Part shown: positions 26,866 to 58,496 of the stretch, piece after piece
Layout of the letters: every line of letters begins with the position of its first letter
Numbering within the stretch: position 1 is the first letter of the stretch
Origin: Candidatus Buchananbacteria bacterium
Lineage (GTDB): Bacteria; Patescibacteriota; Patescibacteriia; Buchananbacterales; UBA6539
NCBI GenBank assembly: GCA_013359225.1
Contig: JABWCG010000001.1
Location: forward strand, 70,410-134,409
DNA length: 64,000 nt
Direction: 5' to 3'
Translations under genes and position numbers: made by a program
The notes under the pieces: generated by a model
Seen by the model: only the letters and a program-made list of their open reading frames with translations
The model's database searches: none
What the model was told of the DNA's origin: nothing

Positions 26866-26877
26866 GATATTTATTTC

Positions 26878-39821: not shown

Positions 39822-39845
39822 TATTTTGATACTTATTGACACTTT

Positions 39846-41926: not shown

Positions 41927-42910
41927 ATGTTTGACGGAAAAACAATTCTAATCACCGGCGGAACCGGATCATTTGGCCGAACATTTACCAAATATCTTTT
42001 GGATAATTTTAATCCCAAAAAGATTATTATTTTTAGTCGTGATGAATTTAAGCAGCACCAGATGAATATGGATTTTAATGATCAGCGGATTCGATTTTTC
42101 ATCGGTGACGTTCGTGATTTATCGCGACTGCAGCGAGCGCTTAAAGGCGTTGATATTGTTATTCATGCGTCGGCCTTAAAACAAGTGCCGGCGATGGAGT
42201 ATAATCCGTTTGAGGCCATCAAAACTAATGTGCTTGGGTCTCAAAATGTGATTGAAGCAGCTATTGATCAGCAGGTGCCTAAGGTGCTTTTAATTTCAAC
42301 CGACAAAGCTGCTCACCCGATTAATTTGTATGGGGCAACAAAATTATCAGCAGAAAAAATCTTTATTGCCAGTAATTCATATGCGCCAAAGAAAACCGTT
42401 TTTGCCGCCGTTCGATATGGCAATGTCATCGGGAGCCGCGGCAGCGTGATTGATCTGATCAAGCGGGGAGAATTCAGCAGCGAGGCAGTAAAGATTACTG
42501 ACCCAGAAATGACAAGATTTTGGATCACTTTGCGTCAGGCCTGCGAACTGGTGGTTTTTGCTTTAGAAAACATGGAAGGCGGCGAAATTTTTGTCCCCAA
42601 AATTCCAAGCATGAAAATCGCCGATATGTTTAAAGCGGTGTTGCCGAAGGCCAAACAGGAAGTAATTGGTATTCGTCCGGGTGAAAAACTCCATGAGGCT
42701 TTATTAACTCAGGATGAGGCCAGGCATTCAGTTGAACTGGAAAAATATTTTGTTATTTTGCCAGAATTTCATTTTTTCTCTAAGGATGAAGATTTGTACG
42801 CTAAATATTATGACTCAGGCAAAAAACTTGAACCAAATTTTCAGTACACTAGTGACAAGAATCATGATTGGCTGACTGATGAACAGATGAAAGATCTGGT
42901 TAAAAATTAG
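41927..42910 (+). CDS. pseB: UDP-N-acetylglucosamine 4,6-dehydratase (PseB/FlaA1/CapD family).
   Basis: Near-collinear with H. pylori FlaA1 (TILITGGTGSFG…FFIGDVRD…IHAAALKQVP…EYNP…). Confidence 0.85.
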   Translation: MFDGKTILITGGTGSFGRTFTKYLLDNFNPKKIIIFSRDEFKQHQMNMDFNDQRIRFFIGDVRDLSRLQRALKGVDIVIHASALKQVPAMEYNPFEAIKTNVLGSQNVIEAAIDQQVPKVLLISTDKAAHPINLYGATKLSAEKIFIASNSYAPKKTVFAAVRYGNVIGSRGSVIDLIKRGEFSSEAVKITDPEMTRFWITLRQACELVVFALENMEGGEIFVPKIPSMKIADMFKAVLPKAKQEVIGIRPGEKLHEALLTQDEARHSVELEKYFVILPEFHFFSKDEDLYAKYYDSGKKLEPNFQYTSDKNHDWLTDEQMKDLVKN

Positions 42911-42917
42911 AGTTATT

Positions 42918-44018
42918 ATGATCCCATACGGCAGACAAACAATTGATGAAAAAGACATTGCGGCAGTTGTTAAGGTTTTAAAATCAGATTGGCTGACTCA
43001 GGGTCCGAAAGTTTTAGAGTTTGAAACAGCGTTGGCAAAATATTGCGGTGCCAAATATGCCGTGGTTGCCAGCAATGGTACGGCGGCGTTGTTGCTGGCT
43101 TATCTGGCCGGCGGCATTAAAAAAGGTGATGAGGTAATTACGACGCCAAATACGTTTGTTGCGACGAGTAATATGCTTTTGGTTTTAGGTGCCAGACCGG
43201 TTTTTTGTGATATTCGTCTTGACACCTATAATATCGACGAATCAAAAATTGAAAAATTGATCACTAAAAAAACCAAAGCCATTGTTCCTGTTCATTTTGG
43301 CGGCCAACCGGTGGCATTAGACGTTATTAGAAAAATTGCCCGGCGACACAAACTGCTCGTGATTGAAGACGCCTGCCATAGTTTAGGGGCAAAATATAAG
43401 AATAAAAAAATCGGCAGCATTTCTGATATGACCGTTTTTAGTTTTCATCCAGTTAAAAGTATTGCTACTGGCGAAGGTGGGGCGGTTTTGACCAACGATA
43501 AAAATGTATACCATCAGCTAAAGCTATTGCGTAGCCACGGTATCACCAAGGATGCTAAAGGTTTTAATGTTATGACTGAGTTGGGCCATAACTTTCGTTT
43601 GACGGACATTCAGGCAGCTTTGGGAATTAGCCAATTGAAGAAGATAAATCAATTTGTCGCTAAGCGACGACTGTTAGTTAAAAAATATCAGCAACGGTTA
43701 AAAGGCATCGATCAGATAATTTTACCCCAAGAAATTAAAGGTAATTTTAGCAGTTGGCATTTGTATGTTATCAGAACTAAAAAGGCTTCTGACCGTTTGC
43801 CGCTGTATAATTATTTGTTGAGTAAGGGGGTTGGTGTTAATTTTCATTACCCGGCCGTCTATAGTCAGCCCTATTATCGTCGCCACAGATATCAAAAAAC
43901 TAAACTGGAAAACGATGAGTTGTACACTAAGACAGCTATTACCTTGCCGCTTTTTCCAACTTTACGCGACCGGGATCATCAGTATGTGTGCAATCAGATT
44001 AAAAATTTTTTTAATTAG
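42918..44018 (+). CDS. pseC: DegT/DnrJ/EryC1-family PLP aminotransferase (PseC-like UDP-4-keto-6-deoxy-sugar transaminase).
   Basis: DegT motifs (…DWLTQGPKV…, …FSFHPVKSIATGEGG… with PLP Lys). Confidence 0.85.
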   Translation: MIPYGRQTIDEKDIAAVVKVLKSDWLTQGPKVLEFETALAKYCGAKYAVVASNGTAALLLAYLAGGIKKGDEVITTPNTFVATSNMLLVLGARPVFCDIRLDTYNIDESKIEKLITKKTKAIVPVHFGGQPVALDVIRKIARRHKLLVIEDACHSLGAKYKNKKIGSISDMTVFSFHPVKSIATGEGGAVLTNDKNVYHQLKLLRSHGITKDAKGFNVMTELGHNFRLTDIQAALGISQLKKINQFVAKRRLLVKKYQQRLKGIDQIILPQEIKGNFSSWHLYVIRTKKASDRLPLYNYLLSKGVGVNFHYPAVYSQPYYRRHRYQKTKLENDELYTKTAITLPLFPTLRDRDHQYVCNQIKNFFN

Positions 44019-44020
44019 TT

Positions 44021-44695
44021 ATGAACCAAAAAGGCGAAAAAATTTTAGCAGTCATTATCGCCCGGGGAGGTTCAAAGTCAATTCCGGGGAAAAACTTGCT
44101 TGATTTTAAAGGTAAGCCCCTGGTGGCTTGGCCGATTGAATTGGCTAAATCAGTTTCACAGATTGATCGGGTGATTATTTCAACTGATAGTGCCGACATT
44201 GCTGAAACAGCCAAGAAGTATGGCGCCGAGGTACCATTTATGCGTCCGGCTGAGCTTGCGACGGACGACGCGCCAACCCTGCCAGTTTTGCAGCATGCCG
44301 TAAAATTTTTAGAAGAAAACCAAAATTTTAAAGCTGATATTATTTTGTTGTTTTATCCCACTTCACCAATGTTAAGCCGCTCTCGGGTTGAAGAAGCCTT
44401 GTTGATGCTGGAAAGTTCTGATTGTAACAGTGTAGTGAGCGTCGTAGAAGACCATGGGCGGTTCTGGGAAAAAACGGAAGGTGCTTTTAAAGTTTTTTAT
44501 CCCAAAGATCGTCTTAACCGTCAGTATTTTCAGCCACTATATAGAGAAAATGGCGCAATTTATTTTTCGCGCTATGTGGTATTAATGAATCAGAATAAAA
44601 TCATTGACGAATCAGCTGTTAAATTATTGGTGATGGCGCCGGATGAATCAGTTGATATTGATAATTGGGCTGATTTAGCAAAGGCAAAGAGGTGA
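44021..44695 (+). CDS. Acylneuraminate/pseudaminate cytidylyltransferase (CMP-NulO synthetase, PseF/NeuA family).
   Basis: AVIIARGGSKSIPGKNL N-terminal signature. Confidence 0.8.
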   Translation: MNQKGEKILAVIIARGGSKSIPGKNLLDFKGKPLVAWPIELAKSVSQIDRVIISTDSADIAETAKKYGAEVPFMRPAELATDDAPTLPVLQHAVKFLEENQNFKADIILLFYPTSPMLSRSRVEEALLMLESSDCNSVVSVVEDHGRFWEKTEGAFKVFYPKDRLNRQYFQPLYRENGAIYFSRYVVLMNQNKIIDESAVKLLVMAPDESVDIDNWADLAKAKR

Positions 44696-44702
44696 AAAGA
44701 TT

Positions 44703-45314
44703 ATGGATTTTGACGGGTTAATTACTTTTTCAGGAGGATTAAAGCAGAGCAAAGACGGTTCCTGGCGAACTACTAATTTTAATGAAGCGGGCGATAAATC
44801 GGGGGTGCTTGGCGATCGATTACGAATTTTAGCGGCAGCGCATTTAGCAAAAATATACCCGCAGGCGACAGTATTCGTTTTGGGGGGCAGAGGTTATCAG
44901 ACTATTAATCCGCAAGCACCAAAGATTTCTGATGTCATGGAGCGCGAACTTGTTGAATTAGGTGTCGCTAAGAATCGGATAATTAAAGATGGCGAATCAG
45001 GCAGTTCATATGAGCAATTACGGTATGTGAATAGTCTAGTAAAAAACCAGCGTTTGAAAAAAATTGGACTTATTTCTAATCGGTATCATTTGCCAAGGTT
45101 GAAAACGATGATTGAGCATCTGGCTGATTTGTCAGATTTGCAAAACGCTGCACTTGAATTTTTGTCGGCTGAAGATGTGTTGATAGAAAAAAATCCTGAT
45201 CGCTGGAAAAAAGAAATTGACGAAGCGTATCAAACCCCGGCAGTCAAGAAGCGAATTCAGCTTGAAGAGCAGGGGATTACCGATTTAAAAAGCGGTCAAT
45301 ACCGCCTTAAATAA
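44703..45314 (+). CDS. DUF218 (YdcF/ElyC/SanA-family) protein.
   Basis: …VFVLGGRG… and …SNRYHLPR… segments match the DUF218 core. Confidence 0.5.
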   Translation: MDFDGLITFSGGLKQSKDGSWRTTNFNEAGDKSGVLGDRLRILAAAHLAKIYPQATVFVLGGRGYQTINPQAPKISDVMERELVELGVAKNRIIKDGESGSSYEQLRYVNSLVKNQRLKKIGLISNRYHLPRLKTMIEHLADLSDLQNAALEFLSAEDVLIEKNPDRWKKEIDEAYQTPAVKKRIQLEEQGITDLKSGQYRLK

Positions 45315-45316
45315 TT

Positions 45317-46387
45317 ATGAAAATTCCAGATTTAAAAATTATTAGTCCGTTAGGCGAGCGCTTGATTGGCCTCACTCAGCCGGTTTTTATTGTGGCTGAA
45401 ATGTCGGGTAATCATAATCAATCAATTAACCAAGCTAAAAGAATTATTGATGCGGCGGCTCAGGCCGGCGTTGACGCGGTAAAATTGCAGACTTATACTC
45501 CAGACACTATCACTATTGATTCTGACAAAGAATATTTTCAAGTTAAAGTCAACGATACCTGGAAGGGTCAGACACTTTATCAGTTGTATCAAAAAACGTA
45601 TACCCCCTGGGAATGGCATGAAGAATTGCGAGATTACGCGGTGAAACAGGGGTTGATATTTTTCTCAACACCCTTTGATGACACGGCAGTTGATTTTTTG
45701 GAAGGCTTGAATGTTCCCTTGTATAAAATTGCTTCTTTTGAGTTAGTTGACGTACCACTGCTAAAAAAGATTGCTTCAACTAAAAAGCCGGTGATTATTT
45801 CGCGGGGAATGTCTAATGAAGCGGAGATTAATTTGGCGATTAAAACGCTTAAGGATTTTGGGTGTCCGAGCATTTCGTTGCTACACTGTGTCAGCGCCTA
45901 TCCGGCTAAAACCGAAGAAATGAATTTGGCAACGATTGCCGATTTAACCCAGAGGTTTGGCGTCGTTCCCGGTCTATCGGACCATAGCTTGAGTCCGCAT
46001 GTTCCGGCTGTAGCTTTAGGTCTTGGCGCCAAAGTAATTGAAAAACATCTGACGCTTAACCGTGCTGACGGCGGGCCTGACGCCGCTTTTTCGCTTGAGC
46101 CGCAGGAATTTAAAAATCTAGTTGGTACCCTAAGAGATTTAGAAAGGGGCCTGGGCCAGGCGCGCTATGACGTTTTGCCGCAGGAGCAAGAAAATATCAT
46201 TTTTAGAAAATCCTTATTTGTTGTTGCGGATGTTAGGAAGGGGGAAACGTTAAATAAGCAGAATGTGCGCTCAATCAGGCCAGGGCACGGGCTTGAGCCG
46301 AAATATTATGATGAAGTTTTGGGCAAAGAAGCGGCCGTTGATATCAAGCGCGGTACGCCGTTAGCCTGGGGTTTAATTAAAAAGTAG
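45317..46387 (+). CDS. NeuB-family nonulosonic acid synthase (pseudaminic/N-acetylneuraminic acid synthase) with C-terminal SAF domain.
   Basis: …PVFIVAEMSGNHNQSINQAKRIIDAAAQAGVDAVKLQTY…. C-terminal SAF-like region. 356 aa. Confidence 0.85.
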   Translation: MKIPDLKIISPLGERLIGLTQPVFIVAEMSGNHNQSINQAKRIIDAAAQAGVDAVKLQTYTPDTITIDSDKEYFQVKVNDTWKGQTLYQLYQKTYTPWEWHEELRDYAVKQGLIFFSTPFDDTAVDFLEGLNVPLYKIASFELVDVPLLKKIASTKKPVIISRGMSNEAEINLAIKTLKDFGCPSISLLHCVSAYPAKTEEMNLATIADLTQRFGVVPGLSDHSLSPHVPAVALGLGAKVIEKHLTLNRADGGPDAAFSLEPQEFKNLVGTLRDLERGLGQARYDVLPQEQENIIFRKSLFVVADVRKGETLNKQNVRSIRPGHGLEPKYYDEVLGKEAAVDIKRGTPLAWGLIKK

Positions 46388-46389
46388 CT

Positions 46390-46848
46390 ATGACTGAATC
46401 ATCACTGAAAGTACGCCCAGCCGTTCAAGCGGATTCACGCCGAGTGTGGGAAATTCGTAATCATCCGCAGGTTCGCGAAGTTTCTGGCAACCCACAGGCT
46501 TTTAGTTTTGAATCGCACAATGCGTGGTTTGAAAATAAATATTTCAGCGCTGGCGATAACCGTTGTTACGTATTGGAGGTTGCCGAGGTAGTTTCTGGCT
46601 ATTGTCGTCTTGATTTTGATCAGCAAAAAAAGTGGTATGTTATTTCAATTGCCCTTGATCCAGAGTTGCAGGGGAGGGGTTTAGGCAATTATCTGTTGCA
46701 AGAGGTGATTAAGAATTTTGACCGGCAAGTTAAAATTTTTGCGGAAATAAAAAAAACTAATGCTCCTTCGCTAAAACTTTTTGAAAAGAATGGCTTTAAG
46801 ATTTTTGATGAAGACGAAAATAATTTTTATCTGAACTATGGAGAATAA
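46390..46848 (+). CDS. GNAT-family N-acetyltransferase (PseH-like).
   Basis: Start LKVRPAVQADSRRVWEIRNHPQVR resembles PseH. GNAT motif A (QGRGLGNYLL). Confidence 0.65.
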   Translation: MTESSLKVRPAVQADSRRVWEIRNHPQVREVSGNPQAFSFESHNAWFENKYFSAGDNRCYVLEVAEVVSGYCRLDFDQQKKWYVISIALDPELQGRGLGNYLLQEVIKNFDRQVKIFAEIKKTNAPSLKLFEKNGFKIFDEDENNFYLNYGE

Positions 46849-48367: not shown

Positions 48368-48371
48368 GCAT

Positions 48372-49127
48372 ATGAATTTTATGGTTCGACCGTCAAAATC
48401 ATTTTTATTTGACCTGCTGGAGTCTAAATTGTGCCGCTTGTCCGGAGAAGTTGGGTTAGATGCAGCGTGTGATAATATGAAAAACCGGCGGATGTTTAAA
48501 ACCAAAAAATATATTGGCTTAGATATTAATCTTGAGACTTTAATTAAGGTGTCATCGAAATCAACTGTCCTTCAATCGCAGCAGCTGTATTCGGTGCATG
48601 CGGATATGGCGAATCTGAATGGTCTGACAAAAAACAGCTGTGATGTTGTCGTTTCAACTAATACCATCTATCAGATTCCTAAGAACCTTCAAGCTAATGT
48701 AATTTTAAATCTTTGTGAGATGGTCAACAGTCGCGGTACATTCATTTGTGAATTATCACTTAATGATCAATTCGATGAGCTGTTGGCGATTATTAAAAAA
48801 TATTTTGTCAAAATGCAGATATATTACTATAAAAATTGGTTAAGTCAAAAATATGAAAAAATTTTTGAACGAGATGGCTACTTGGGGTCCCATCCCATTG
48901 CGAGTAAAAAATTTTTTAGATTTTTAGCTTGGCTGATTAGTCGGGGTGAATTTTTGACGTATCGTAATCGTCGGGGGAAAAAACACGCCGTTATTATTGC
49001 TACCGCGCGGCACGAAGCAAAGGATGAAGTTTTTAGTTTGTCAGGCGTGCCAATTGTCGCCGGGAATATTTATTCTTTATTTGAATATCAAAGGAATATA
49101 AATGATAATGATGATAAAAAAAATTAA
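48372..49127 (+). CDS. Hypothetical protein, possibly a class I methyltransferase-like protein.
   Basis: Weak motif-I-like YIGLDIN and CDVVVSTNTIYQIP. Low confidence. Confidence 0.3.
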   Translation: MNFMVRPSKSFLFDLLESKLCRLSGEVGLDAACDNMKNRRMFKTKKYIGLDINLETLIKVSSKSTVLQSQQLYSVHADMANLNGLTKNSCDVVVSTNTIYQIPKNLQANVILNLCEMVNSRGTFICELSLNDQFDELLAIIKKYFVKMQIYYYKNWLSQKYEKIFERDGYLGSHPIASKKFFRFLAWLISRGEFLTYRNRRGKKHAVIIATARHEAKDEVFSLSGVPIVAGNIYSLFEYQRNINDNDDKKN

Positions 49128-50415
49128 AGTTAAATTAAGAGACAGCTTTAAGTTTTTGCTTGTTAAGTTGACGGTTGTCATTAATCAACCTGCGCTGACG
49201 GCATTGGTGTTGGCCATGTTTGCCAGCCGATTGGGGCAGAAAAACCAGTACCGAGTTTTGGTAATGGGTCGTAGTATTTTTACCGACGACATCAGGTCAA
49301 TGGTTGAATTCAGCGGACAGATTGAGTATCAGGTTATTCATTTATCATTCTTTCAGGTGATTTTTGATCACTTCGTTTCTCGAACTGATCGGACAAAAAT
49401 AACTGAAAGTAACTACCACAACGTTACCGACGGCGTGATTGGCCGACAGCGATATCGTGCATATTTGGAAAAAATGTTTGAACCGCTAAAGCAGAGACTT
49501 GGTTTTCAGGCGGTTATTTCTGGTAATATCGGTTATATTGTCCAACAAGAATTGGCTAAAATTTGTCTTGAAAAAAATGTTGCCTTTGTGGTGCTTCATA
49601 AGGAGGCGGTAGTGGTATCTCAGGCGTATGGCAATTTTTTGAATGTGTATAAGCACCATCATTTTATGGGGCACAAAGTTATGTTTTATAATAAGCAGTG
49701 TATGCAGGGATTTTTAGATTTGCACATCCCCGGACTGACTCCGGACAAGGCTGTTTGTGTCGGTATCCCGCGGTTTGATAATTATTTTTTGAGAAAGGAA
49801 CCTGACGAGCGGGTGGTAAATCAAGTGGTGTTTTTCAGTTTTTTGCCAAGGTACTCTTCGCGGTTTTTGACCACAAATGAGGCAACTTTACAAAACATTG
49901 AGACAAGAGCTATTGAATTCTTTAAAATTGTTTATGAATGTGCTCAGCGCCATCCGGAAGTGCATTTCATTGTTAAGACCAAAATGTCTTTCCAGTATGT
50001 TGATTTCCCAACAAAAATTTTACGCACTTTTTATCCTGATGGTATAAAAAATCTTTCAATTGTTAATACTGGCGACCCATCAGAATTAATACATAATGCA
50101 TTGGCAGTAATTGGGTTTAATTCAACAACACTCATTGAAGCATTGATTGCCGGTAAACCTATTATTTCTCCATACTTTGGTGATATTATAACCGATCGGG
50201 ATTGGAGTTTTTTCCAGAAATATAGTAGTTTGGTTTGTTATGCCCAAACTAGTGAAGACCTAGAAAATTGTTTATTTAACAAAAGCAATAATTTGGGTTA
50301 TAGTGATGATACTAAAAAAGCATTTTTGGAAGAATATATTTCAATTTCTCACGGCGGTGCCAGTAAATTCGCCGAAGCAGAGATTATTAAAACTATTACT
50401 AATTTGTCTAAATAA
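49102..50415 (+). CDS. GT-B-fold protein, paralogous in its C-terminal domain to the ORF at 46838.
   Basis: …ALAVIGFNSTTLIEALIAGKPIISPYFG… parallels the ORF at 46838. Otherwise unassigned. Confidence 0.4.
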   Translation: MIMMIKKIKVKLRDSFKFLLVKLTVVINQPALTALVLAMFASRLGQKNQYRVLVMGRSIFTDDIRSMVEFSGQIEYQVIHLSFFQVIFDHFVSRTDRTKITESNYHNVTDGVIGRQRYRAYLEKMFEPLKQRLGFQAVISGNIGYIVQQELAKICLEKNVAFVVLHKEAVVVSQAYGNFLNVYKHHHFMGHKVMFYNKQCMQGFLDLHIPGLTPDKAVCVGIPRFDNYFLRKEPDERVVNQVVFFSFLPRYSSRFLTTNEATLQNIETRAIEFFKIVYECAQRHPEVHFIVKTKMSFQYVDFPTKILRTFYPDGIKNLSIVNTGDPSELIHNALAVIGFNSTTLIEALIAGKPIISPYFGDIITDRDWSFFQKYSSLVCYAQTSEDLENCLFNKSNNLGYSDDTKKAFLEEYISISHGGASKFAEAEIIKTITNLSK

Positions 50416-50423
50416 TCAATTTT

Positions 50424-51500
50424 ATGTTTAACTTTAAAAATAACCCACTTGGTAAAATAAAAATTGGCAACAAGTTTGTTGGTCAAGACGCGCCGACTTT
50501 TTTTATTGCTGAAATTGGCAATAATCATAATGGAGATTATTACTTAGCTAAGAAGAGTATTGAGGAAGCGGTAAAGGCCGGTGCCGATGCGGTAAAAATT
50601 CAGAAACGCACGGTTAAGGACGTTTTTGCCCGAGAGCTTCTGGAAAAGCCTCAGACTAAAGACCAGATTTACGGCAAGACGTATGGTGAATATCGCCAGC
50701 GGCTTGAATTAAATGACGACGATATTGTTAAACTTAAACAGTACGCCGATGAACTTGGAGTAATATTTTTTGCCACGCCGTTTGATAAAATCAGTGCCGA
50801 CTTTTTGGAGAGCATCGGTTCTGATTTGTATAAAATTGCTTCATTTGATGTTACTAATTTGCCGTTATTGGAGCATGTTGCTAAAAAAGGTAAGCCAATT
50901 ATCTTGTCGGTTGGTATGTCGGACTGGGATGAAGTAGATGAGGCGGTTGAAACCATCTTAAAATATAATGATCAATTGATCATTAAACACTGCGTGTCAG
51001 TATATCCGACCCCAGATGAAAAGATTAATTTAACCACTATGACAAAATTGCGCGAGCGCTATAATCCTTTGCCGATTGGCTATTCCGGCCACGAGCAAGA
51101 TATTTTGCCGACTTTGGCGGCAGTAGCCTTAGGTGCAAAGACCATTGAGCGGCATTTTACGTTAGATAAACATCTGCCGGGTCCCGATCACGCCACAGTC
51201 AGTATTGAGCCAGAGGAATTTAAAAGTATGGTAGACAGCGCCCGCCGAATTGAAAAGGCCCTTGGTGATGGCTTGTCTAAACTACTTGAAGATGAATTAA
51301 AAGCCAGAGAAAAACATGGTAAAAGTATTGTTAGTGCTACTGACATTAAGGCCGGGCAGGTGATTACGCCGGAAATGGTTACTATTAAGAGTCCTGGATA
51401 TGGTTTGAAACCAAACATGGTTGGGCAGTTGATTGGCAAAACGGCAAAAGTCGATATTGAGTCAGACTCGGTAATTACTAAAGAGCTAATTAATTGGTGA
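50424..51500 (+). CDS. Second NeuB-family nonulosonic acid synthase.
   Basis: …TFFIAEIGNNHNGDYYLAKKSIEEAVKAGADAVKIQKRT…. C-terminal SAF domain. 358 aa. Confidence 0.85.
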   Translation: MFNFKNNPLGKIKIGNKFVGQDAPTFFIAEIGNNHNGDYYLAKKSIEEAVKAGADAVKIQKRTVKDVFARELLEKPQTKDQIYGKTYGEYRQRLELNDDDIVKLKQYADELGVIFFATPFDKISADFLESIGSDLYKIASFDVTNLPLLEHVAKKGKPIILSVGMSDWDEVDEAVETILKYNDQLIIKHCVSVYPTPDEKINLTTMTKLRERYNPLPIGYSGHEQDILPTLAAVALGAKTIERHFTLDKHLPGPDHATVSIEPEEFKSMVDSARRIEKALGDGLSKLLEDELKAREKHGKSIVSATDIKAGQVITPEMVTIKSPGYGLKPNMVGQLIGKTAKVDIESDSVITKELINW

Positions 51501-51502
51501 TT

Positions 51503-52294
51503 ATGACGTATTTAGAAACCCTTTTTGATTTAAAAGATAAAGTGGCAGTAGTGACTGGCGGTTTGGGAATTTTAGGGACTCAGTACTGCGAAGCCTTGTT
51601 GAAATCCGGTGCAAAGGTGGCGGTGATTGATATTAACGAAGTAAAGAGTGATCACTACCTTGCTAATGCTGCTAATGGTGGTGCACTAAAGTTTTTTAAG
51701 GCGGATATTACTAATCGGTTAGAAATGGAACAAGCGTTACATGATATTGAAACGGATTGGTCAACTCCAGAAATTTTGATCAACAATGCTGCGCTGGATT
51801 TTCCTCCCAGCCCGGGCGTCAAGGAAACATTTGAGAATTATCCACTTGATAAATGGAACTCAGTGATTAATGTTAATTTAACTGGTGTGTTGGTGTGCTG
51901 CCAGGTGTTTGGCGGCGCGATGGCGCAAAAGAACGGCGGTAGCATTATTAATATTTCGTCCATTTATGGTATTGTTTCACCGGATCAAAGGATCTATAAA
52001 GACTTTGTTAAGCCGGTTTCTTATAGTGTCACTAAGTCGGGAATAATCAATTTTACTAAATATCTTGCAACATACTGGGCTGCAAAGAACGTGCGGGTAA
52101 ACACCCTAATTCCTGGTGGTGTTTTAGGTAGTCAGGACAAAGGGTTTATTGAAAAATATCAGTCGAAAGTGCCTCTAAATCGTATGGCACAAAAAGATGA
52201 ATATAACGGAGCAATTTTATTCTTAGCCTCCCGAGCTTCGTCGTATATGACCGGCTCCAGCCTGGTCGTTGACGGGGGATTAACCGCTTGGTAA
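51503..52294 (+). CDS. Short-chain dehydrogenase/reductase (SDR).
   Basis: TGGLGILG cofactor motif. YxxxK in YSVTKSG. ATG at 51503 is preferred over the GTG at 51494. Confidence 0.8.
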   Translation: MTYLETLFDLKDKVAVVTGGLGILGTQYCEALLKSGAKVAVIDINEVKSDHYLANAANGGALKFFKADITNRLEMEQALHDIETDWSTPEILINNAALDFPPSPGVKETFENYPLDKWNSVINVNLTGVLVCCQVFGGAMAQKNGGSIINISSIYGIVSPDQRIYKDFVKPVSYSVTKSGIINFTKYLATYWAAKNVRVNTLIPGGVLGSQDKGFIEKYQSKVPLNRMAQKDEYNGAILFLASRASSYMTGSSLVVDGGLTAW

Positions 52295-52301
52295 TGATTA
52301 T

Positions 52302-53060
52302 ATGATTAAAGAATTAAAGCGAAACAATTTAACAATTAAAATGGATGTTGAAACTGATTTTGAGCAACATCGATTTGATACTTTTATTGATAAAGAGCCA
52401 GAAACAATCACCTGGATCGAAACGTTGGTTAAGCCGGGCGAGGTTTTTTTTGACGTTGGTGCAAACATCGGAGTGTATTCTTTGTACGCCGCAACGTTTT
52501 TTAACAAAAATATTTCGGTATACTGCTTTGAACCAGTGTTTCATAATTTCAACAAACTGTGTAAAAATTTGGCTGCTAATGGTTTTGATAAGATTTGCAA
52601 CCCATATGCAATTGCCATTGCCGACGAAACTAAAGTTGATTACATTGATTTAGCGTCGGTAGTTTCCGGTTCGGCAAGCCATGCAATGGCGAATTCGCCA
52701 GAATATGTGATGAAAGACTTTAATTCGCAATTTCGTCAGGGGGTATTTTGTGTCAGTCTTGATGATTTAATCAATCAGTACGGTTTTGCAGTGCCAAATC
52801 ATATTAAGATTGACGTTGATGGTTTTGAGGAAAAAGTCATTGCAGGCGCGGCTGATGTTTTACGTCGCCCCGAATTAAAATCAATTTTAATTGAAATCAC
52901 CGACATTGACGGTGCTGTTGAACGAATTAGTCAAAAAATTATTGCATCTGGATTCAATACTAATCATCCGGTTAATTCTCAGCCTAATCATTCAAGGTTT
53001 CGCCGAGAAAAGTCGGGCAACGGTCATATTAAAAATATTATTTTTGTCCGGGATAATTAA
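52302..53060 (+). CDS. FkbM-family methyltransferase.
   Basis: FFDVGANIGVYSL…IKIDVDGFEEKV. Confidence 0.7.
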   Translation: MIKELKRNNLTIKMDVETDFEQHRFDTFIDKEPETITWIETLVKPGEVFFDVGANIGVYSLYAATFFNKNISVYCFEPVFHNFNKLCKNLAANGFDKICNPYAIAIADETKVDYIDLASVVSGSASHAMANSPEYVMKDFNSQFRQGVFCVSLDDLINQYGFAVPNHIKIDVDGFEEKVIAGAADVLRRPELKSILIEITDIDGAVERISQKIIASGFNTNHPVNSQPNHSRFRREKSGNGHIKNIIFVRDN

Positions 53061-53066
53061 GAGAGT

Positions 53067-54515
53067 ATGCAGTACCCCAAAAAAATCTTGCATTGGGTTA
53101 ATGACACCGAAATTGAAGGGCATTCAAAAGATTTTTTTAGTAAGTTAAACCCGGCCAATGAGCAAAAATTAGCTGATGTGGCCAGCGGCACTCAGGCGGA
53201 TGTTGAATCAGCCGTTGAGTCGGCAGTTGCGGCATTTGATATATGGCACTCCAAACCGGTTGTTGAGCGGGCAAACATTTTACAATCAGCGGCAAAGTTG
53301 TTGGAGGAGAAAAAAAGTGAATTGGCAGAAATTATCAGTCAGGAATGCGGCAAGTCATTAACTGATGCTCTTGGCGAAATTAATGCGGCTATTGAGTGCG
53401 GCCGGTTTATTGCCGAACAAACTCAAAGTTTTGCTCCTGAATTTATCAAAAGTAAGAACCCTGGCCGGACCGTATTTTTAACTCGTAATCCGGTCGGCGT
53501 TGCCGCTTTGATCGTTCCATTTAATAATCCGGCAGCAAGCCTAGCTTGGAAGATTTTTCCGGCCTTGTTTTGCGGCAACACGGTAGTTATCAAAGCTCAT
53601 GAAGATACGCCGTATGTTGCAGTTTGGTTTGCTAAAATTTTTAAAGAAGCCGGATTGCCAAACGGGGTAATATCGGTTGTTCAGGGTCTGGGGCAAGAGG
53701 TTGGTGCAGCGCTGGTTGCTGATAGTCGTGTTGACCTTATCAGTTTTACCGGCAGTGTACAGACTGGCAGGCTGATTATTAAAAATTCTGCCGACCGCTT
53801 AGCAAAAGTTTCAATTGAAGCTGGTGGCAAAAATCCGCTTGTAATTTGTGATGACGCCGATATTGATCTGGCGGTTGCAACAAGCATACAATCAGCTTTT
53901 GTGGATGGCGGCCAGCGTTGTGCTGCTGCTAGCAGAATAGTTATTTTTGAATCGGTGTACGAACAGTTTAAAGAAAAATTTTTGTCGGCGGTAAAGCAGT
54001 TGGTAGTTGGTGTTGCGCCGGGTGCTAATTATGGAGCCATTATTAATGAACGGCGTTTGAATCAGATTCTAGGATTTGTTTCCCGGGCCCGCGAGCAGGG
54101 AATAAAAATTTTAGCAGGCGGCAACAGAATTAGCGGCACAGGATTCTTTATGGAACCAACAGTCTTGGAGGGTGCTAGATTGGAAGATGAGATATCGTGT
54201 TTTGAAGTATTTGGTCCGGTAGTTAATTTATATCAAGTTAAAGATTTAACTGAAGCAATTAGGGTCTCTAATGCGACGCCTTTTGGCCTATCGGGTGCAA
54301 TTCACACCAAAGATCCTGATCGAGTGCAGAAATTTGTTGCTGGGTATCATAGCGGCGTTGTTCGAGTGAACGGTCCGACTCATGGTAGTGAACCGCACAT
54401 GCCATTTGGAGGTGTTAAATTGTCAGGTAACGGTTGGCGCGAACCAGGGCTTAAGGCGTTTGATTTTTATACTGATTGGCGCCAGGTTAGTATTGATAAC
54501 CAAAAATATGAATAA
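53067..54515 (+). CDS. NAD(P)-dependent aldehyde dehydrogenase family protein.
   Basis: Catalytic Cys region GQRCAAASR and Glu region (…LEAGGKNP…). 482 aa. Confidence 0.85.
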   Translation: MQYPKKILHWVNDTEIEGHSKDFFSKLNPANEQKLADVASGTQADVESAVESAVAAFDIWHSKPVVERANILQSAAKLLEEKKSELAEIISQECGKSLTDALGEINAAIECGRFIAEQTQSFAPEFIKSKNPGRTVFLTRNPVGVAALIVPFNNPAASLAWKIFPALFCGNTVVIKAHEDTPYVAVWFAKIFKEAGLPNGVISVVQGLGQEVGAALVADSRVDLISFTGSVQTGRLIIKNSADRLAKVSIEAGGKNPLVICDDADIDLAVATSIQSAFVDGGQRCAAASRIVIFESVYEQFKEKFLSAVKQLVVGVAPGANYGAIINERRLNQILGFVSRAREQGIKILAGGNRISGTGFFMEPTVLEGARLEDEISCFEVFGPVVNLYQVKDLTEAIRVSNATPFGLSGAIHTKDPDRVQKFVAGYHSGVVRVNGPTHGSEPHMPFGGVKLSGNGWREPGLKAFDFYTDWRQVSIDNQKYE

Positions 54516-55233
54516 AGTTATTGCATTAATTCCGGCCCGGTCAGGCTCTAAGCGAATACCAAATAAAAATATTAAAGAGCTACACGGCCATCCTTTGATT
54601 GCTTATACTATTAAAGCTGCTTTAAATTCAAAGATTTTTAGCCGGGTTATTGTTTCAACTGATAGTGAAGAAATCAGAGACATTGCTTTGCGGTATGGCG
54701 CCCAAGCGCCATTTTTGCGACCAAAGGATATGGCGTCTGATACCGCTTCGGACATTGAATGGGTTTCCCATGCCCTTGGAGAATTGGGTGATGATTTGAC
54801 AGATTGTTTTTCAATTTTGAGGCCAACTAGTCCATTTCGTCAGCCTGAAACTATCCAGCGGGCTTGGAAAAAATTTTTAGAGCATCCGAACTACGATTCA
54901 TTGCGGGCAATTGAAAAGGTTAGTCAGCACCCGGGCAAAATGTGGCGTCAGGAAGGTGATTATATTAAACCTTTAATGGAAAATCCAGATAAAAATGATA
55001 CCCCATGGCATTCAAAACAATATCATGCATTGCCGGAAGTGTATGTCCAAAATGCCAGCTTGGAAATTGCCTGGACAAAAGTACCGCTTGAACATGGCAC
55101 AATTGCCGGCGAAAAAATCGTGCCATTTTTTACTGAAGGCTATGAAGGTTTTGATATCAATAAATTTGAGGACTGGATCATCGCGGAGTATTTAATTAAT
55201 AATAATTTAGCACAATTACCAAGTATCAAATAG
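54508..55233 (+). CDS. Second acylneuraminate cytidylyltransferase-family protein (CMP-NulO/CMP-Kdo-like synthetase).
   Basis: MNKVIALIPARSGSKRIPNKNI. ATGAATAA overlap with the ALDH stop. The ORF-track start at 54382 is an upstream alternative-start artefact. Confidence 0.8.
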   Translation: MNKVIALIPARSGSKRIPNKNIKELHGHPLIAYTIKAALNSKIFSRVIVSTDSEEIRDIALRYGAQAPFLRPKDMASDTASDIEWVSHALGELGDDLTDCFSILRPTSPFRQPETIQRAWKKFLEHPNYDSLRAIEKVSQHPGKMWRQEGDYIKPLMENPDKNDTPWHSKQYHALPEVYVQNASLEIAWTKVPLEHGTIAGEKIVPFFTEGYEGFDINKFEDWIIAEYLINNNLAQLPSIK

Positions 55234-55234
55234 T

Positions 55235-57104: not shown

Positions 57105-58496
57105 TTATTGACCCTGTCTGGTCAGAATGGTTTTAATTGTTTTAAGAGAAATGCTTAGATCAACCGCGAGCGAACGATTTTTGATATAATATAAATCGTA
57201 TTGTAATTTTTGATAACTTTCTTCAACTGAACCACCATACGCCGGACCCATTACTTGAGCCCAACCGGTTAAGCCCGGTTTAACTAGCAATCTTTCTTTG
57301 TAGAAAGGAATTTGATTCTGGAGCTGATTAACAAATTCCGGTCGTTCTGGACGCGGACCGATTAAACTCATTTCCCCGCGTAAAACATTAAACAACTGTG
57401 GAATTTCGTCCAGTCGGGTCTTGCGCATGAATTTACCGACCCTGGTAATTCGTGGATCATTTTTAGCGGCCCATTGGGGGCCGTTTTTTTCGGCTTCAAT
57501 AATCATGGTTCGGAATTTAGTTGCTTTAAAATCTTTGCCGTTTTTGCCGGTTCTGATCTGGCTGAAAAACACTGGACCCTTGCTACTGAGTTTGATAGCC
57601 AGCGCAATAAAAGGGATGATCGGCAGTGAAATAACGAGAATTATCAAAGACGCAACAACATCAAAAAGCCGTTTGATAATTTCGTAAACCCTTTTATTAT
57701 TTTCCGCTAAGTTTTCTAAAAACCAAATTTGTTCGATGGTGTTGATTGGTACGCGCCCCATAATTTTTTCGTAAAAGGTGGCAATATCAAAAAAACTTAT
57801 TTTGAGCGGCAGGCAGGAAAATAGTCCTTTCATTAGTGCCGGATTTTCTCTTGGGTGAACCGTTGAAACGATGGTACTTATTTTATGTTCAAGGCAAATT
57901 TGATGTAACTCTTCCAGATCTTTTTTGATGGCAATTTTTTGCAGTGATTCAGGGACAGCTTGATCGTCAATGGTGATAATGGTTTTTACCCGCAATCCAA
58001 GCTGCGGGGTTTTTTCAATCTGATTGATAATGTCTTGAGCCAAAGAATTTAAGCCGATAATTAGCAGGTTATTTGATATTTTTGATGACTTGGTAATGAA
58101 ATCAAACAGAGTATGCCAGGCGTATATTAGAACGAGGGCAGTAATTGAATTGACCGCCAGTGTAGTTTGGGGACGAATGGTAAACAGCCGGTCTTGTCCG
58201 AGATAGAAAAAGACGACGGCAAAAAACCCACCAATAATGATATCGCGAACAATTCTGACAATCAGTCCGGCGCGGCCCTGGCGAAAACTCAATTCATAGA
58301 TATCGTCAATATAAAATGCCAACAGCCAGATGCCGTATACTACTGTGAATGGCAGGATGTGCCGCGACCAAAGCCACGGTTCATAGTTGCCAAAATACCT
58401 GATAACTAAAGTTAACCAAAGCGAAAAATAGAGGATAGCAATATCCCCGATCATTAAGATGTATTTTCTGGTTTTAATTGCGGTATCTTTTCCCAT
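57105..58496 (-). CDS. Initiating polyprenyl-phosphate sugar-1-phosphate transferase (WbaP/PglB-type bacterial sugar transferase).
   Basis: N-terminal TM bundle. C-terminal domain KRLFDVVASLIILVISLPI…PVFFSQIRTGKNGK…EIPQLFNVLRGEMSLIGPRP. Confidence 0.85.
   Translation of the reverse strand: MGKDTAIKTRKYILMIGDIAILYFSLWLTLVIRYFGNYEPWLWSRHILPFTVVYGIWLLAFYIDDIYELSFRQGRAGLIVRIVRDIIIGGFFAVVFFYLGQDRLFTIRPQTTLAVNSITALVLIYAWHTLFDFITKSSKISNNLLIIGLNSLAQDIINQIEKTPQLGLRVKTIITIDDQAVPESLQKIAIKKDLEELHQICLEHKISTIVSTVHPRENPALMKGLFSCLPLKISFFDIATFYEKIMGRVPINTIEQIWFLENLAENNKRVYEIIKRLFDVVASLIILVISLPIIPFIALAIKLSSKGPVFFSQIRTGKNGKDFKATKFRTMIIEAEKNGPQWAAKNDPRITRVGKFMRKTRLDEIPQLFNVLRGEMSLIGPRPERPEFVNQLQNQIPFYKERLLVKPGLTGWAQVMGPAYGGSVEESYQKLQYDLYYIKNRSLAVDLSISLKTIKTILTRQGQ

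What the first reader, a model, noticed from the sequence alone, without database searches (positions are those of the whole stretch)
41927..55233. Two separate nonulosonic/ulosonic-acid modules: a pseudaminic-type set plus a second NeuB-family synthase with its own CMP-transferase
Module 1: PseB (41927), PseC (42918), CMP-transferase (44021), NeuB-family synthase (45317) and PseH-like GNAT (46390) cover the pseudaminic acid pathway. A GT-B protein (46838) could be the missing PseG hydrolase. Module 2: a second NeuB-family synthase (50424) and a second cytidylyltransferase (54508) are bracketed by an SDR, an FkbM methyltransferase and an aldehyde dehydrogenase. There is no recognisable 2-epimerase (NeuC/LegG) or LegB/LegC pair. 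Its substrate is therefore unclear, and it may produce an unusual (possibly methylated or oxidised) 3-deoxy-2-ulosonic acid. Two NulO pathways in one small genome are notable.
Basis: partly seen in the sequence, partly recalled or inferred. Interest (0 to 1): 0.75.

Follow-up and report, generated by a model that had tools for sequence, protein, structure and literature searches.

The report
Two sugar-acid modules, one uncharacterised cassette
A tiny-genome (CPR) bacterium carries an ordinary pseudaminic-acid gene set next to a second, separate sugar-acid cassette. That cassette recurs across several phyla, contains an unusual transketolase-like enzyme, and probably makes a surface sugar acid that has not yet been described.

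Summary
All the genes named lie at the stated coordinates, intact and tightly packed on the + strand of a Candidatus Buchananbacteria contig.

**Module 1** is a pseudaminic-acid set. PseB, PseC and PseI pass NCBIfam equivalog cut-offs. The cytidylyltransferase and the GNAT are sub-threshold. No PseG was found.

The 509-aa protein at 46838 is not PseG. Its high-confidence model is closest to retaining beta-Kdo transferases (WbbB, KpsC, KrKA).

**Module 2** is not a duplicate of module 1:
- The second synthase is 38% identical to the first and lies outside the PseI clade.
- Its cytidylyltransferase falls in a clade found only next to a transketolase-like gene and an aldehyde dehydrogenase.

It is one variant of a cassette (NeuB, KdsC-like phosphatase, SDR, ALDH, cytidylyltransferase, TK-like). 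That cassette occurs in the same gene order in Curtissbacteria, in loci labelled Vampirovibrio and Spirochaetales, and in other metagenomic contigs.

The TK-like family keeps all cofactor and catalytic residues, but its substrate-channel residues are replaced.

No description of the cassette was found in the searchable literature.

My inference is that it makes a CMP-activated, oxidatively tailored 3-deoxy-2-ulosonic acid, probably a dicarboxylic (ulosaric) acid, which this variant also methylates.

The parts
41927..42910 (+). PseB, UDP-GlcNAc 4,6-dehydratase (inverting); module 1
   Evidence: TIGR03589 467.7 bits, above the 407.75 cut-off; Polysacc_synt_2
42918..44018 (+). PseC aminotransferase; module 1
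   Evidence: TIGR03588 459.5 bits, above the 423.5 cut-off
44021..44695 (+). CT1, PseF-like CMP-sugar synthetase; module 1
   Evidence: CTP_transf_3; PseF model 162.2, below the 205.7 cut-off; groups with the cytidylyltransferase of a PseB/PseC/PseI locus, L007, in the NJ tree
44703..45314 (+). DUF218 protein of unknown role; sits next to the PseI-like synthase in three CPR loci
   Evidence: PF02698 53.4 bits; homologues immediately upstream of the PseI-like synthase in L001 and L020; the AF2 single-sequence model is unusable
45317..46387 (+). PseI, pseudaminic acid synthase; module 1
   Evidence: TIGR03586 474.5 bits, above the 340.25 cut-off; best PDB match is C. jejuni PseI 8h2c, 293 bits; lies in the PseI clade
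46390..46848 (+). GNAT N-acetyltransferase, PseH-like (sub-threshold)
   Evidence: Acetyltransf_1; PseH model 54.1, below the 93.1 cut-off; fused to a GT509 homologue in P0358
46838..48367 (+). GT509, putative CMP-ulosonic-acid transferase with a retaining beta-Kdo-transferase-like GT-B fold; not PseG
48372..49127 (+). SAM-dependent methyltransferase
   Evidence: Methyltransf_11/31; 41% identical homologue in the same position in L001
49102..50415 (+). GT437, second putative nonulosonic-acid transferase
   Evidence: BFO_1060 family, 54.6 bits over model positions 54-364 of 365; TIGR04396 39.2 bits. BFO_1060 is a homologue, in another T. forsythia strain, of the genetically proven Pse/Leg-derivative transferases Tanf_01245 and TFUB4_00887 (PMC5420450)
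50424..51500 (+). NeuB2, NeuB-family synthase of module 2
   Evidence: NeuB+SAF; below both the NeuB_NnaB and PseI cut-offs; catalytic residues conserved against NmNeuB; CPR clade at 62-72% identity; outside the PseI clade
51494..52294 (+). SDR oxidoreductase of the cassette
   Evidence: adh_short_C2; best NCBIfam matches are PRK09186, D-mannonate oxidoreductase and gluconate 5-dehydrogenase, all sub-threshold; co-occurs with the TK-like gene in 7 of 9 TK-seeded loci
52302..53060 (+). FkbM-family methyltransferase, a CPR-variant addition
   Evidence: TIGR01444 94.1 bits; also present in L005, L020, L022 and L103
53067..54515 (+). Aldehyde dehydrogenase of the cassette
   Evidence: Aldedh 497.6 bits; best NCBIfam matches are alpha-ketoglutaric semialdehyde DH and 2,5-dioxovalerate DH, sub-threshold; next to the TK-like gene in 9 of 9 TK-seeded loci
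54508..55233 (+). CT2, cytidylyltransferase of the cassette (longest ORF starts at 54382)
   Evidence: CTP_transf_3 97.9 bits; PseF model 152.9, below the 205.7 cut-off; lies in a clade of TK/ALDH-linked cytidylyltransferases
55235..57100 (+). Transketolase-like ThDP enzyme of the cassette, with non-canonical substrate-channel residues
   Evidence: Transketolase_N/pyr/C; below all NCBIfam TK cut-offs. Across 120 homologues the cofactor and catalytic residues are invariant, while human Ser345 is Asp, His416 is Leu, Asp424 is Pro and Arg474 is Ser/Thr/Asn
57105..58496 (-). Polyprenyl glycosylphosphotransferase (initiating enzyme), convergent with the operon
   Evidence: TIGR03025 408.1 bits, above the 295.55 cut-off; same position in L001 and L020

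Best explanation
**What is shown.** The region is the distal part of a large surface-glycan operon of a Candidatus Buchananbacteria (CPR) genome. It encodes two independent CMP-ulosonic-acid modules and two ulosonic-acid-type transferases.

**Module 1 (41927-46848).** This makes CMP-pseudaminic acid or a close derivative by the PseB, PseC, PseH-like, PseI and PseF-like route. The UDP-sugar hydrolase step (PseG) is unassigned.

**Module 2 (50424-57100).** This is the local variant of a six-gene cassette conserved across phyla: NeuB-family synthase, KdsC/Kdn-9-P-type phosphatase, SDR, aldehyde dehydrogenase, cytidylyltransferase and a transketolase-like ThDP enzyme. The variant here lacks the phosphatase and has gained an FkbM methyltransferase.

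**Inferred mechanism.** The cassette builds a 3-deoxy-2-ulosonic acid. NeuB2 makes it from PEP and an aldehyde. In some relatives a pyruvate aldolase may do this step instead. The remaining steps convert one terminus into a second carboxylate:
- the SDR makes the penultimate (omega-1) ketone, as gluconate 5-dehydrogenase and KduD do;
- the TK-like enzyme cleaves off the CH2OH-CO two-carbon head, leaving an aldehyde;
- the ALDH oxidises that aldehyde to the acid.

Whether this trimming happens after the condensation (on the ulosonic acid or its CMP ester) or before it (making an aldehyde-acid that NeuB2 then condenses) cannot be decided here.

Either order gives a CMP-activated 3-deoxy-2-ulosaric (dicarboxylic) acid. 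In this variant it is also O-methylated, and GT437 or GT509 transfers it to the glycan.

Shown: the gene content, the conservation of the cassette, and the non-Pse identity of its synthase and cytidylyltransferase. Inferred: the chemistry.
For: **Organism and intact genes.**

**Not a duplication.**
- NeuB1 and NeuB2 are 38% identical; CT1 and CT2 are 36% identical.
- NeuB1 lies in the PseI clade with C. jejuni PseI. NeuB2 lies in a different superclade.
- CT2 lies in a clade of TK/ALDH-linked cytidylyltransferases.

**Cassette conservation.**
- The order NeuB-HAD-SDR-ALDH-CT-TK is identical in L056, L101 (protein named Spirochaetales), L102 (Vampirovibrio), L106 (Curtissbacteria) and L108.
- Rearranged variants occur in L001, L003, L005, L020, L022, L105 and L107.
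- In nine loci found through the TK-like protein alone: ALDH 9/9, cytidylyltransferase 9/9, SDR 7/9, HAD 7/9, NeuB 6/9.

**Phosphatase.** In the four loci scanned (L001, L056, L101, L102) it best matches the KdsC and Kdn-9-P phosphatase models. Only L001's reaches a curated cut-off.

**TK-like family.**
- 57-63% identity across CPR, cyanobacteria, Vampirovibrio, Spirochaetales, SAR324 and Gemmatimonadales.
- Cofactor and catalytic residues are invariant. Substrate-channel residues are replaced in 120 of 120 members.

**Hints at a dicarboxylate.**
- Where NeuB is absent, the nearby C-C-forming enzymes are an Eda (KHG/KDPG) aldolase in L103 and an HpaI/GarL-like aldolase in L104. Their known substrates include 4-hydroxy-2-keto-dicarboxylates (substrate knowledge is established biochemistry).
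- The ALDH's best family matches are 2-keto-acid semialdehyde dehydrogenases. The SDR's are sugar-acid omega-1 dehydrogenases.
- An acid-sugar dehydratase plus a PanE-like reductase are inserted in L001 and L107.

**Coupling and transfer.**
- A CT-SDR fusion in L103 suggests the SDR works next to the activation step.
- Transferase candidates of the Kdo-transferase fold or Capsule_synth type travel with the cassette.
Against: - No enzyme was assayed. The chemistry is inferred from family resemblances that are all below curated cut-offs.
- The window variant lacks the KdsC-like phosphatase.
- A TK-type cleavage needs an acceptor for the two-carbon unit, and none is evident.
- L006 has the NeuB2-clade synthase with the dehydratase, reductase and cytidylyltransferase but no SDR, ALDH or TK within 8-10 kb. 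The dehydratase therefore does not strictly require the ALDH product.
- In L100, L103 and L104 no NeuB lies within 9 kb. The condensing step is therefore not fixed.
- The replaced TK residues are accompanied by new invariant Lys, Arg and His residues. 'No anionic substrate' cannot be concluded.
- Ser at the position of NmNeuB Arg314 is shared with many non-cassette NeuB homologues and says nothing about the substrate.
Confidence: 0.45

Rival explanations
1. Module 2 makes an ordinary Kdn- or Kdo-like monocarboxylic ulosonic acid by NeuB, phosphatase and cytidylyltransferase. The transketolase-like enzyme only supplies the aldose phosphate. The SDR and ALDH do side jobs such as epimerisation through a keto intermediate, or precursor and redox housekeeping.
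For: - The core of NeuB-family synthase, KdsC-family phosphatase and cytidylyltransferase matches the Bacteroides Kdn pathway, from established knowledge. The phosphatases also match the Kdn-9-P phosphatase model below its cut-off.
- Heptose-pathway genes (SIS, GHMP kinase, NTP transferase-HAD) lie next to the cassette in L003 and L106. A supply role for a transketolase there is conceivable.
Against: - The TK-like family has lost the residues that bind sugar phosphate in canonical transketolases, in 120 of 120 members.
- It occurs in cyanobacteria, which already have a canonical transketolase (established knowledge; distribution).
- ALDH is the most tightly linked partner of the TK-like gene (9/9). 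That is unexpected for a side role.
Confidence: 0.25
2. The TK-like enzyme works in the synthetic direction. The SDR oxidises the terminal CH2OH of the ulosonic acid to an aldehyde, and the TK-like enzyme adds a two-carbon ketol unit. The product is a higher-carbon (C10-C11) CMP-ulosonic acid.
For: - Transketolases are reversible carboligases (established knowledge).
- CMP-activated ulosonic acids with extended backbones, and no assigned genes, have just been reported in Magnetospirillum (bioRxiv 10.64898/2026.04.20.719630).
Against: - The ALDH, which is always present, would have no role or would compete for the same aldehyde.
- The Magnetospirillum sugars are di-N-acetylated C10 species, and that paper does not mention a transketolase.
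Confidence: 0.12
3. Module 2 makes a known nonulosonic acid (legionaminic or N-acetylneuraminic acid) from precursors encoded elsewhere in the genome. The TK, ALDH and SDR genes are unrelated neighbours.
For: - NeuB2 scores best against the NeuB_NnaB model (335.9 bits).
- It sits in a broad superclade that includes synthases flanked by LegB/LegC-like genes.
- Only 64 kb of a 601-kb contig was visible.
Against: - The score is below the model's cut-off of 399.65.
- Synteny of NeuB, SDR, ALDH, cytidylyltransferase and TK is conserved across phyla and across gene-order rearrangements.
- No LegB/C/G or NeuC was found in any scanned ORF of the window.
Confidence: 0.06
4. Module 2 is a simple duplication of the pseudaminic-acid synthase and cytidylyltransferase, or a decayed copy.
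For: Both cytidylyltransferases score best against the PseF model.
Against: - Only 36-38% identity between the two copies.
- They fall in different clades.
- PseI model score of 264, below the 340 cut-off.
- Intact ORFs with conserved catalytic residues.
- NeuB2 orthologues at 62-72% identity are spread across Patescibacteria.
Confidence: 0.01

Closest known systems
Pseudaminic acid pathway (PseB, PseC, PseH, PseG, PseI, PseF of Campylobacter/Helicobacter)
   Same: Module 1 has PseB, PseC and PseI above NCBIfam equivalog cut-offs. It also has a PseF-like cytidylyltransferase and a PseH-like GNAT in one operon.
   Different: No PseG homologue is present. The cytidylyltransferase and GNAT are sub-threshold. 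A conserved DUF218 gene sits between the cytidylyltransferase and the synthase.
Kdn pathway of Bacteroides thetaiotaomicron (Kdn-9-P synthase, Kdn-9-P phosphatase, CMP-Kdn synthetase) and the Kdo pathway (KdsA/KdsC/KdsB)
   Same: The cassette core is a NeuB-family synthase, a KdsC/Kdn-9-P-type HAD phosphatase and a CTP_transf_3 cytidylyltransferase.
   Different: An SDR, an aldehyde dehydrogenase and a transketolase-like enzyme are obligatory extras. The window variant lacks the phosphatase and adds a methyltransferase. All family scores are below the equivalog cut-offs.
Canonical transketolase (human TKT, PDB 4kxu/6rjb; short ~620-aa type)
   Same: The three-domain architecture is the same. 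The ThDP, Mg and catalytic residues (His37, His77, His110, Asp155, Asn185, His258, Glu366) are invariant.
   Different: Residues that hold the sugar phosphate and define acceptor stereochemistry are replaced throughout the family: Ser345 to Asp, His416 to Leu, Asp424 to Pro, Arg474 to Ser/Thr/Asn. The gene always sits in glycan loci next to ALDH and a cytidylyltransferase.
Retaining beta-Kdo transferases (WbbB GT99, KpsC GT107, KrKA) and the Tannerella forsythia Pse/Leg-derivative transferases (BFO_1060 family)
   Different: Sequence identity to the solved structures is only 12-17%. GT509 has a large N-terminal half with no sequence-family match. Donor and acceptor are unknown.
Kdo8N tailoring in Shewanella (KdnB oxidises C8 of Kdo to the aldehyde, KdnA transaminates). 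This comparison is from my own knowledge.
   Same: The concept is the same: the distal end of a finished ulosonic acid is modified through an aldehyde intermediate.
   Different: Different enzyme families are involved (an iron alcohol dehydrogenase and an aminotransferase, against SDR, TK-like and ALDH here). The predicted outcome is a carboxylate rather than an amine.

Membership tests
Pseudaminic acid pathway (module 1) | PseB inverting 4,6-dehydratase | tested here: met
   TIGR03589 467.7 bits, above the 407.75 cut-off
Pseudaminic acid pathway (module 1) | PseC aminotransferase | tested here: met
   TIGR03588 459.5 bits, above the 423.5 cut-off
Pseudaminic acid pathway (module 1) | PseH N-acetyltransferase | tested here: inconclusive
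   The GNAT at 46390 scores 54.1, below the 93.1 cut-off of TIGR03585, which is nevertheless its best match
Pseudaminic acid pathway (module 1) | PseG UDP-sugar hydrolase | tested here: not met
   No TIGR03590 match in any of the ten proteins from 41927 to 51500. No GT28-type domain in any Pfam-scanned ORF. GT509 is Kdo-transferase-like by fold.
Pseudaminic acid pathway (module 1) | PseI synthase | tested here: met
   TIGR03586 474.5 bits, above the 340.25 cut-off; clade with C. jejuni PseI
Pseudaminic acid pathway (module 1) | PseF cytidylyltransferase | tested here: inconclusive
   162.2, below the 205.7 cut-off; groups with the cytidylyltransferase of a Pse locus
PseI/PseF duplication (module 2) | The second synthase and cytidylyltransferase fall inside the PseI/PseF clades | tested here: not met
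   PseI model 264.3, below the 340.25 cut-off; separate clades in the NJ trees
Neu5Ac or legionaminic acid pathway (module 2) | NeuB/LegI equivalog score, plus NeuC/LegG hydrolysing 2-epimerase and LegB/LegC | tested here: not met
   NeuB_NnaB 335.9, below the 399.65 cut-off. No epimerase_2, LegB or LegC match in any scanned ORF of the window. The rest of the genome was not visible.
Kdn/Kdo-type phosphorylated ulosonic acid pathway (module 2 core) | PEP-dependent synthase, KdsC-family ulosonate-phosphate phosphatase and CMP-transferase | tested here: inconclusive
   The synthase and cytidylyltransferase are present in the window, but the phosphatase is absent. KdsC/Kdn-9-P-type phosphatases were confirmed in the four related loci scanned, L001, L056, L101 and L102. 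L022, L106, L107 and L108 carry a short Hydrolase_3-type HAD of similar size.
Canonical transketolase | ThDP/Mg-binding and catalytic histidines | tested here: met
   Invariant in 120 of 120 homologues
Canonical transketolase | Substrate phosphate-binding residues and acceptor-defining Asp (human Arg318, Ser345, His416, Asp424, Arg474) | tested here: not met
   Ser345 to Asp, His416 to Leu, Asp424 to Pro in 120 of 120. Arg474 to Ser/Thr/Asn. The Arg318 region carries an indel with a Lys/Arg nearby. All NCBIfam TK models are below cut-off.
Retaining beta-Kdo / ulosonic-acid transferases (GT509) | GT-B variant fold shared with WbbB and KpsC, and an HP motif | tested here: met

The most novel reading that the evidence does not exclude
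The cassette NeuB, KdsC-like phosphatase, SDR, ALDH, cytidylyltransferase and TK-like enzyme encodes the first known route to a CMP-activated 3-deoxy-2-ulosaric acid, a sugar of the Dha type. The key step is a transketolase-like enzyme that cuts a two-carbon unit off a sugar acid. That would define a new class of bacterial surface sugar present in CPR bacteria, cyanobacteria and other phyla. It would also provide candidate enzymes for Dha biosynthesis. Both the pathway to Dha and its activated form are still unknown in plants and algae (PMC3355719, PMC12168206).
Probability: 0.17. Interest if true: 0.85.

Novelty: new variant of a known kind. Interest (0 to 1): 0.62.

Why it matters
**New surface chemistry.** CPR bacteria have tiny genomes, yet this one spends tens of kilobases on surface glycans, including two acidic CMP-activated sugars. 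This points to cell-surface chemistry that matters for their host-attached lifestyle.

**A concrete target.** The second module belongs to a cassette conserved across phyla whose product is unknown. The cassette recruits a remodelled transketolase, an enzyme type not previously linked to ulosonic-acid biosynthesis. It offers six small genes that could be expressed in E. coli to look for a new nucleotide sugar and new ThDP chemistry.

**A possible answer to an old question.** If the product is a dicarboxylic ulosaric acid, the cassette would give the first enzymatic precedent for how sugars such as Dha are made and activated.

Tried and rejected
1. **Arg314 as a substrate marker.** I considered the replacement of NmNeuB Arg314 (probed by the 4ipi and 4ipj mutant structures) by Ser in NeuB2 as a sign of a non-N-acetylated substrate. 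I rejected it. The NJ tree shows Ser, Gly or Asn at this position throughout a large superclade, including synthases flanked by LegB/LegC-like genes. A search for residues specific to TK-linked NeuBs found only three weak positions.

2. **The dehydratase argument.** I used the acid-sugar dehydratase plus PanE-like reductase of L001 as evidence that an ALDH-made carboxylate is needed. L006 weakened this: it has these genes with NeuB2 and a cytidylyltransferase, but no SDR, ALDH or TK nearby.

3. **DUF218 as a PseG substitute.** The single-sequence AF2 model was unusable (pLDDT 46.7) and there was no PDB sequence match. This remains unresolved.

5. **The genome-contig scan.** With the single protein as query it returned only two close loci. 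The metagenome scan returned mostly 40-49% relatives.

6. **Literature.** Searches for NeuB or nonulosonic acids together with transketolase or Patescibacteria found nothing relevant.

8. **Transcription signals.** No convincing internal terminators or promoters split the two modules.

Full report
**Source and setting.** The second synthase is 100% identical to a protein of a Candidatus Buchananbacteria (Patescibacteria/CPR) metagenome-assembled genome, on a 601-kb contig. Nearly all genes in the window lie on the + strand. From about 24.4 kb to the end, the window is one long surface-glycan locus. It contains:
- two PMT_2 glycosyltransferases, several GT4 enzymes, a UDP-glucose dehydrogenase and an epimerase;
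- methyltransferases and a HepA/MsbA-like ABC exporter;
- the region of the finding;
- a convergent polyprenyl glycosylphosphotransferase;
- a Wzy_C-TPR protein, a subtilase and a GtrA-like protein.

The first 20 kb are housekeeping genes (SUF, MgsA, a PilT-like ATPase, adenylosuccinate synthetase).

**Check of the observation.** Neighbours are separated by 0-9 nt or overlap slightly, as in an operon.
- PseB, PseC and PseI exceed the NCBIfam equivalog cut-offs.
- The first cytidylyltransferase and the GNAT match PseF and PseH best, but below cut-off.
- The second NeuB-family protein is below both the NeuB_NnaB cut-off (335.9 against 399.65) and the PseI cut-off (264.3 against 340.25).
- The SDR, the FkbM methyltransferase, the aldehyde dehydrogenase and the second cytidylyltransferase are as described.

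**Is module 2 a duplicate or a pseudogene? No.**
- The two synthases share 38% identity and the two cytidylyltransferases 36%.
- NeuB2 keeps the residues that align with the metal-binding histidines and catalytic acids of the N. meningitidis enzyme.
- In a neighbour-joining tree of 117 NeuB-family sequences, NeuB1 sits with C. jejuni PseI and with synthases from PseB/PseC loci. NeuB2 sits in a different superclade. The tree used the fetched loci plus PDB anchors and is rough, without bootstrap.
- In the cytidylyltransferase tree, CT1 groups with the enzyme of a Pse locus. CT2 lies in a tight clade whose members all sit next to a TK-like gene and an ALDH.
- NeuB2 orthologues at 62-72% identity are widespread in Patescibacteria.

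**The protein at 46838 is not PseG.**
- It has no PseG (TIGR03590) match and only weak Capsule_synth and BFO_1060 matches.
- An AlphaFold model built on 44 homologues has pLDDT 91.4.
- An HP pair is conserved in its family.
- The 437-aa protein at 49102 matches almost the full BFO_1060 domain model. BFO_1060 is a strain homologue of two Tannerella forsythia proteins shown genetically to be required for transfer of Pse and Leg derivatives (PMC5420450).

The locus therefore has two candidate ulosonic-acid transferases, which fits two CMP-activated acids. The PseG step is unassigned. The DUF218 gene is a candidate only by position, because it also sits next to the PseI-like synthase in L001 and L020. 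I could not test it. One relative (P0358) fuses the GNAT to a GT509 homologue. This keeps a link between these two steps open, but it is a single case involving overlapping genes.

**Module 2 is a conserved cassette.**

Contexts of NeuB2 homologues:
- L020 has the same set and order as the window: NeuB, SDR, FkbM, ALDH, CT, TK.
- L001 reads NeuB, SDR, acid-sugar dehydratase, PanE-like reductase, CT, ALDH, KdsC-like HAD, TK.
- L003 reads NeuB, HAD, SDR, TK, ALDH.
- L005 and L022 have the cytidylyltransferase and FkbM upstream, followed by NeuB, (HAD), SDR, and ALDH and TK in either order.

Contexts of the TK-like protein:
- Its homologues are 57-63% identical across CPR lineages, cyanobacteria, Vampirovibrio, Spirochaetales, SAR324 and Gemmatimonadales.
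- I looked up nine of them without regard to NeuB. ALDH and a CTP_transf_3 gene were present in nine of nine, an SDR in seven, a HAD phosphatase in seven and NeuB in six.
- The order NeuB, HAD, SDR, ALDH, CT, TK is identical in L056, L101, L102, L106 and L108.
- The four HADs scanned (L001, L056, L101, L102) best match the KdsC and Kdn-9-P phosphatase models. Only L001's reaches a curated cut-off.
- A conserved 552-564-aa protein distantly related to Capsule_synth proteins travels with the non-CPR cassettes. Capsule_synth genes precede the cassette in L102 and L108.

I found no description of this cassette in the searchable literature.

**The transketolase-like enzyme.**
- It has the three transketolase domains but is below every NCBIfam transketolase cut-off.
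- I aligned 120 family members to human TKT. The human sequence was recalled from memory and checked against the PDB alignment.
- All 120 keep His37, His77, His110, Asp155, Asn185, His258 and Glu366.
- All 120 have Asp for Ser345, Leu for His416 and Pro for Asp424. Arg474 is Ser, Thr or Asn.
- From established structural work on transketolases, those replaced residues bind the substrate phosphate and fix acceptor stereochemistry.
- The family also has its own invariant Lys132, His428, His430 and Arg434.

It is therefore a catalytically competent ThDP ketol-transfer enzyme with a rebuilt substrate channel. Its presence in cyanobacteria, which need a canonical transketolase for the Calvin cycle (established knowledge), argues that it is a dedicated paralogue and not the housekeeping enzyme.

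**How it probably works (inference).**

The core of NeuB, KdsC-type phosphatase and cytidylyltransferase is the logic of the Kdn and Kdo pathways: condense PEP with an aldose phosphate, dephosphorylate, then activate with CTP.

The three extra enzymes fit together best as a trimming and oxidation unit:
- The SDR's nearest families oxidise the penultimate hydroxyl of sugar acids (gluconate 5-dehydrogenase, KduD, mannonate oxidoreductase). That reaction creates a CH2OH-CO head.
- A CH2OH-CO head is the motif a transketolase attacks. Cleavage removes two carbons and leaves an aldehyde.
- The ALDH's nearest families oxidise semialdehydes of 2-keto acids, so it would convert that aldehyde into a carboxylate.

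The result is a 3-deoxy-2-ulosaric (dicarboxylic) acid.

The same three enzymes could instead act before the condensation. In that order, an aldose phosphate is oxidised to the aldonate, dephosphorylated, oxidised at omega-1 and cleaved to an aldehyde-acid, which NeuB2 then condenses with PEP. I cannot decide between the two orders. Both give the same class of product.

Further hints at a dicarboxylate:
- Where NeuB is missing, the nearby C-C-forming enzymes are an Eda-type KHG/KDPG aldolase (L103) and an HpaI/GarL-type aldolase (L104). Their natural substrates include 4-hydroxy-2-keto-dicarboxylates.
- L001 and L107 add an enolase-superfamily acid-sugar dehydratase and a 2-keto-acid reductase. 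These need an aldonate-type carboxylate end.

A CT-SDR fusion in L103 suggests the SDR acts next to the activation step. In the window the FkbM enzyme would add a methyl group.

**Weak points.**
- All family matches used for the chemistry are sub-threshold.
- No acceptor for the two-carbon unit is evident.
- The window variant has no phosphatase.
- L006 shows the dehydratase, reductase and cytidylyltransferase trio with NeuB2 but without SDR, ALDH or TK in 8-10 kb.

**Comparison with what is known.**
- Module 1 is a new member of the Pse pathway with one defining step (PseG) not met.
- Module 2 works like a Kdn/Kdo-type pathway at its core, but it is not a member of the Neu5Ac, Leg, Pse, Kdn or Kdo equivalog families by score or by gene content.
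- The TK-like enzyme fails the substrate-binding test for canonical transketolases.
- Ulosaric acids do exist in nature. Dha occurs in plant RG-II, in prasinophyte thecae and in the LPS core of Rhizobiaceae (PMC3355719; a reference in PMC5713287). The pathway to Dha and its activated form are still listed as unknown in 2025 (PMC12168206).
- I do not claim the product is Dha. Chain length and stereochemistry are open.

**Verdict.** The interesting part is not the coexistence of two pathways. It is that the second belongs to an undescribed cassette, conserved across phyla, with a remodelled transketolase. I rate it a new variant of a known kind (a CMP-ulosonic-acid biosynthesis module), with interest 0.62. 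The most novel reading the evidence does not exclude is a first route to CMP-ulosaric acids, to which I give about 0.17 probability.

Noticed in passing
window 44703-45314; L001 3299-3904; L020 from about 56: A DUF218 gene sits immediately upstream of the PseI-like synthase in three CPR loci, none of which shows a PseG. It may replace the missing UDP-sugar hydrolase step, or do something else entirely.
   Followed up: partly
protein P0358 (666 aa), relative of window 46390-48367: The PseH-like GNAT (51% identical to the window's) is fused to a GT509 homologue in one metagenomic protein. In the window the two genes overlap by 11 nt.
   Followed up: partly
L001 11882-14710; L006 9102-13411; L107 15134-18238: An enolase-superfamily acid-sugar dehydratase, a PanE/ApbA-like 2-keto-acid reductase and a cytidylyltransferase recur together as a sub-module next to NeuB2-type synthases, with or without the TK/ALDH genes.
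   Followed up: partly
L103 3854-5449 and 8195-8890: In a complete Sungiibacteriota genome the cassette carries a cytidylyltransferase-SDR fusion protein (531 aa). It has an Eda-type KHG/KDPG aldolase where NeuB usually sits.
   Followed up: partly
L102 10979-13815; L108 1-4161 and 10920-13747: In the non-CPR loci L102 and L108 the cassette is followed by CysD/CysN-APS kinase (PAPS synthesis) genes. L108 also has sulfotransferase genes upstream. This suggests a sulfated glycan.
   Followed up: no
window 39836-39865: A perfect sigma-70 consensus (TTGACA, 18 nt, TATAAT, preceded by TG) overlaps the start of the small HTH ORF (39846-40121), just upstream of the ABC exporter and the Pse genes. It may be an internal promoter, and the ORF start may be miscalled.
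   Followed up: no
window 18932-24354: An ECF sigma factor and a DUF5667 protein are followed by a 1240-aa ORF with no Pfam match. This region has higher GC (0.47-0.49, against about 0.40 elsewhere). The ORF may encode a large surface protein that is a target of the glycosylation locus.
   Followed up: no
window 24465-28539: Two PMT_2 (protein O-mannosyltransferase-like) membrane glycosyltransferases flank a TPR protein at the head of the glycan locus.
   Followed up: no
window 36367-37269: A 300-aa ORF inside the glycan operon has no Pfam or NCBIfam match.
   Followed up: partly
L056 16304-17962; L100 11663-13357; L101 2720-4378: A conserved 552-564-aa protein (43-50% mutual identity) travels with the non-CPR cassettes. 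It has no Pfam or NCBIfam match where tested (L056, L101) and is only distantly related to the Capsule_synth protein of L102. It may be the cognate transferase.
   Followed up: partly
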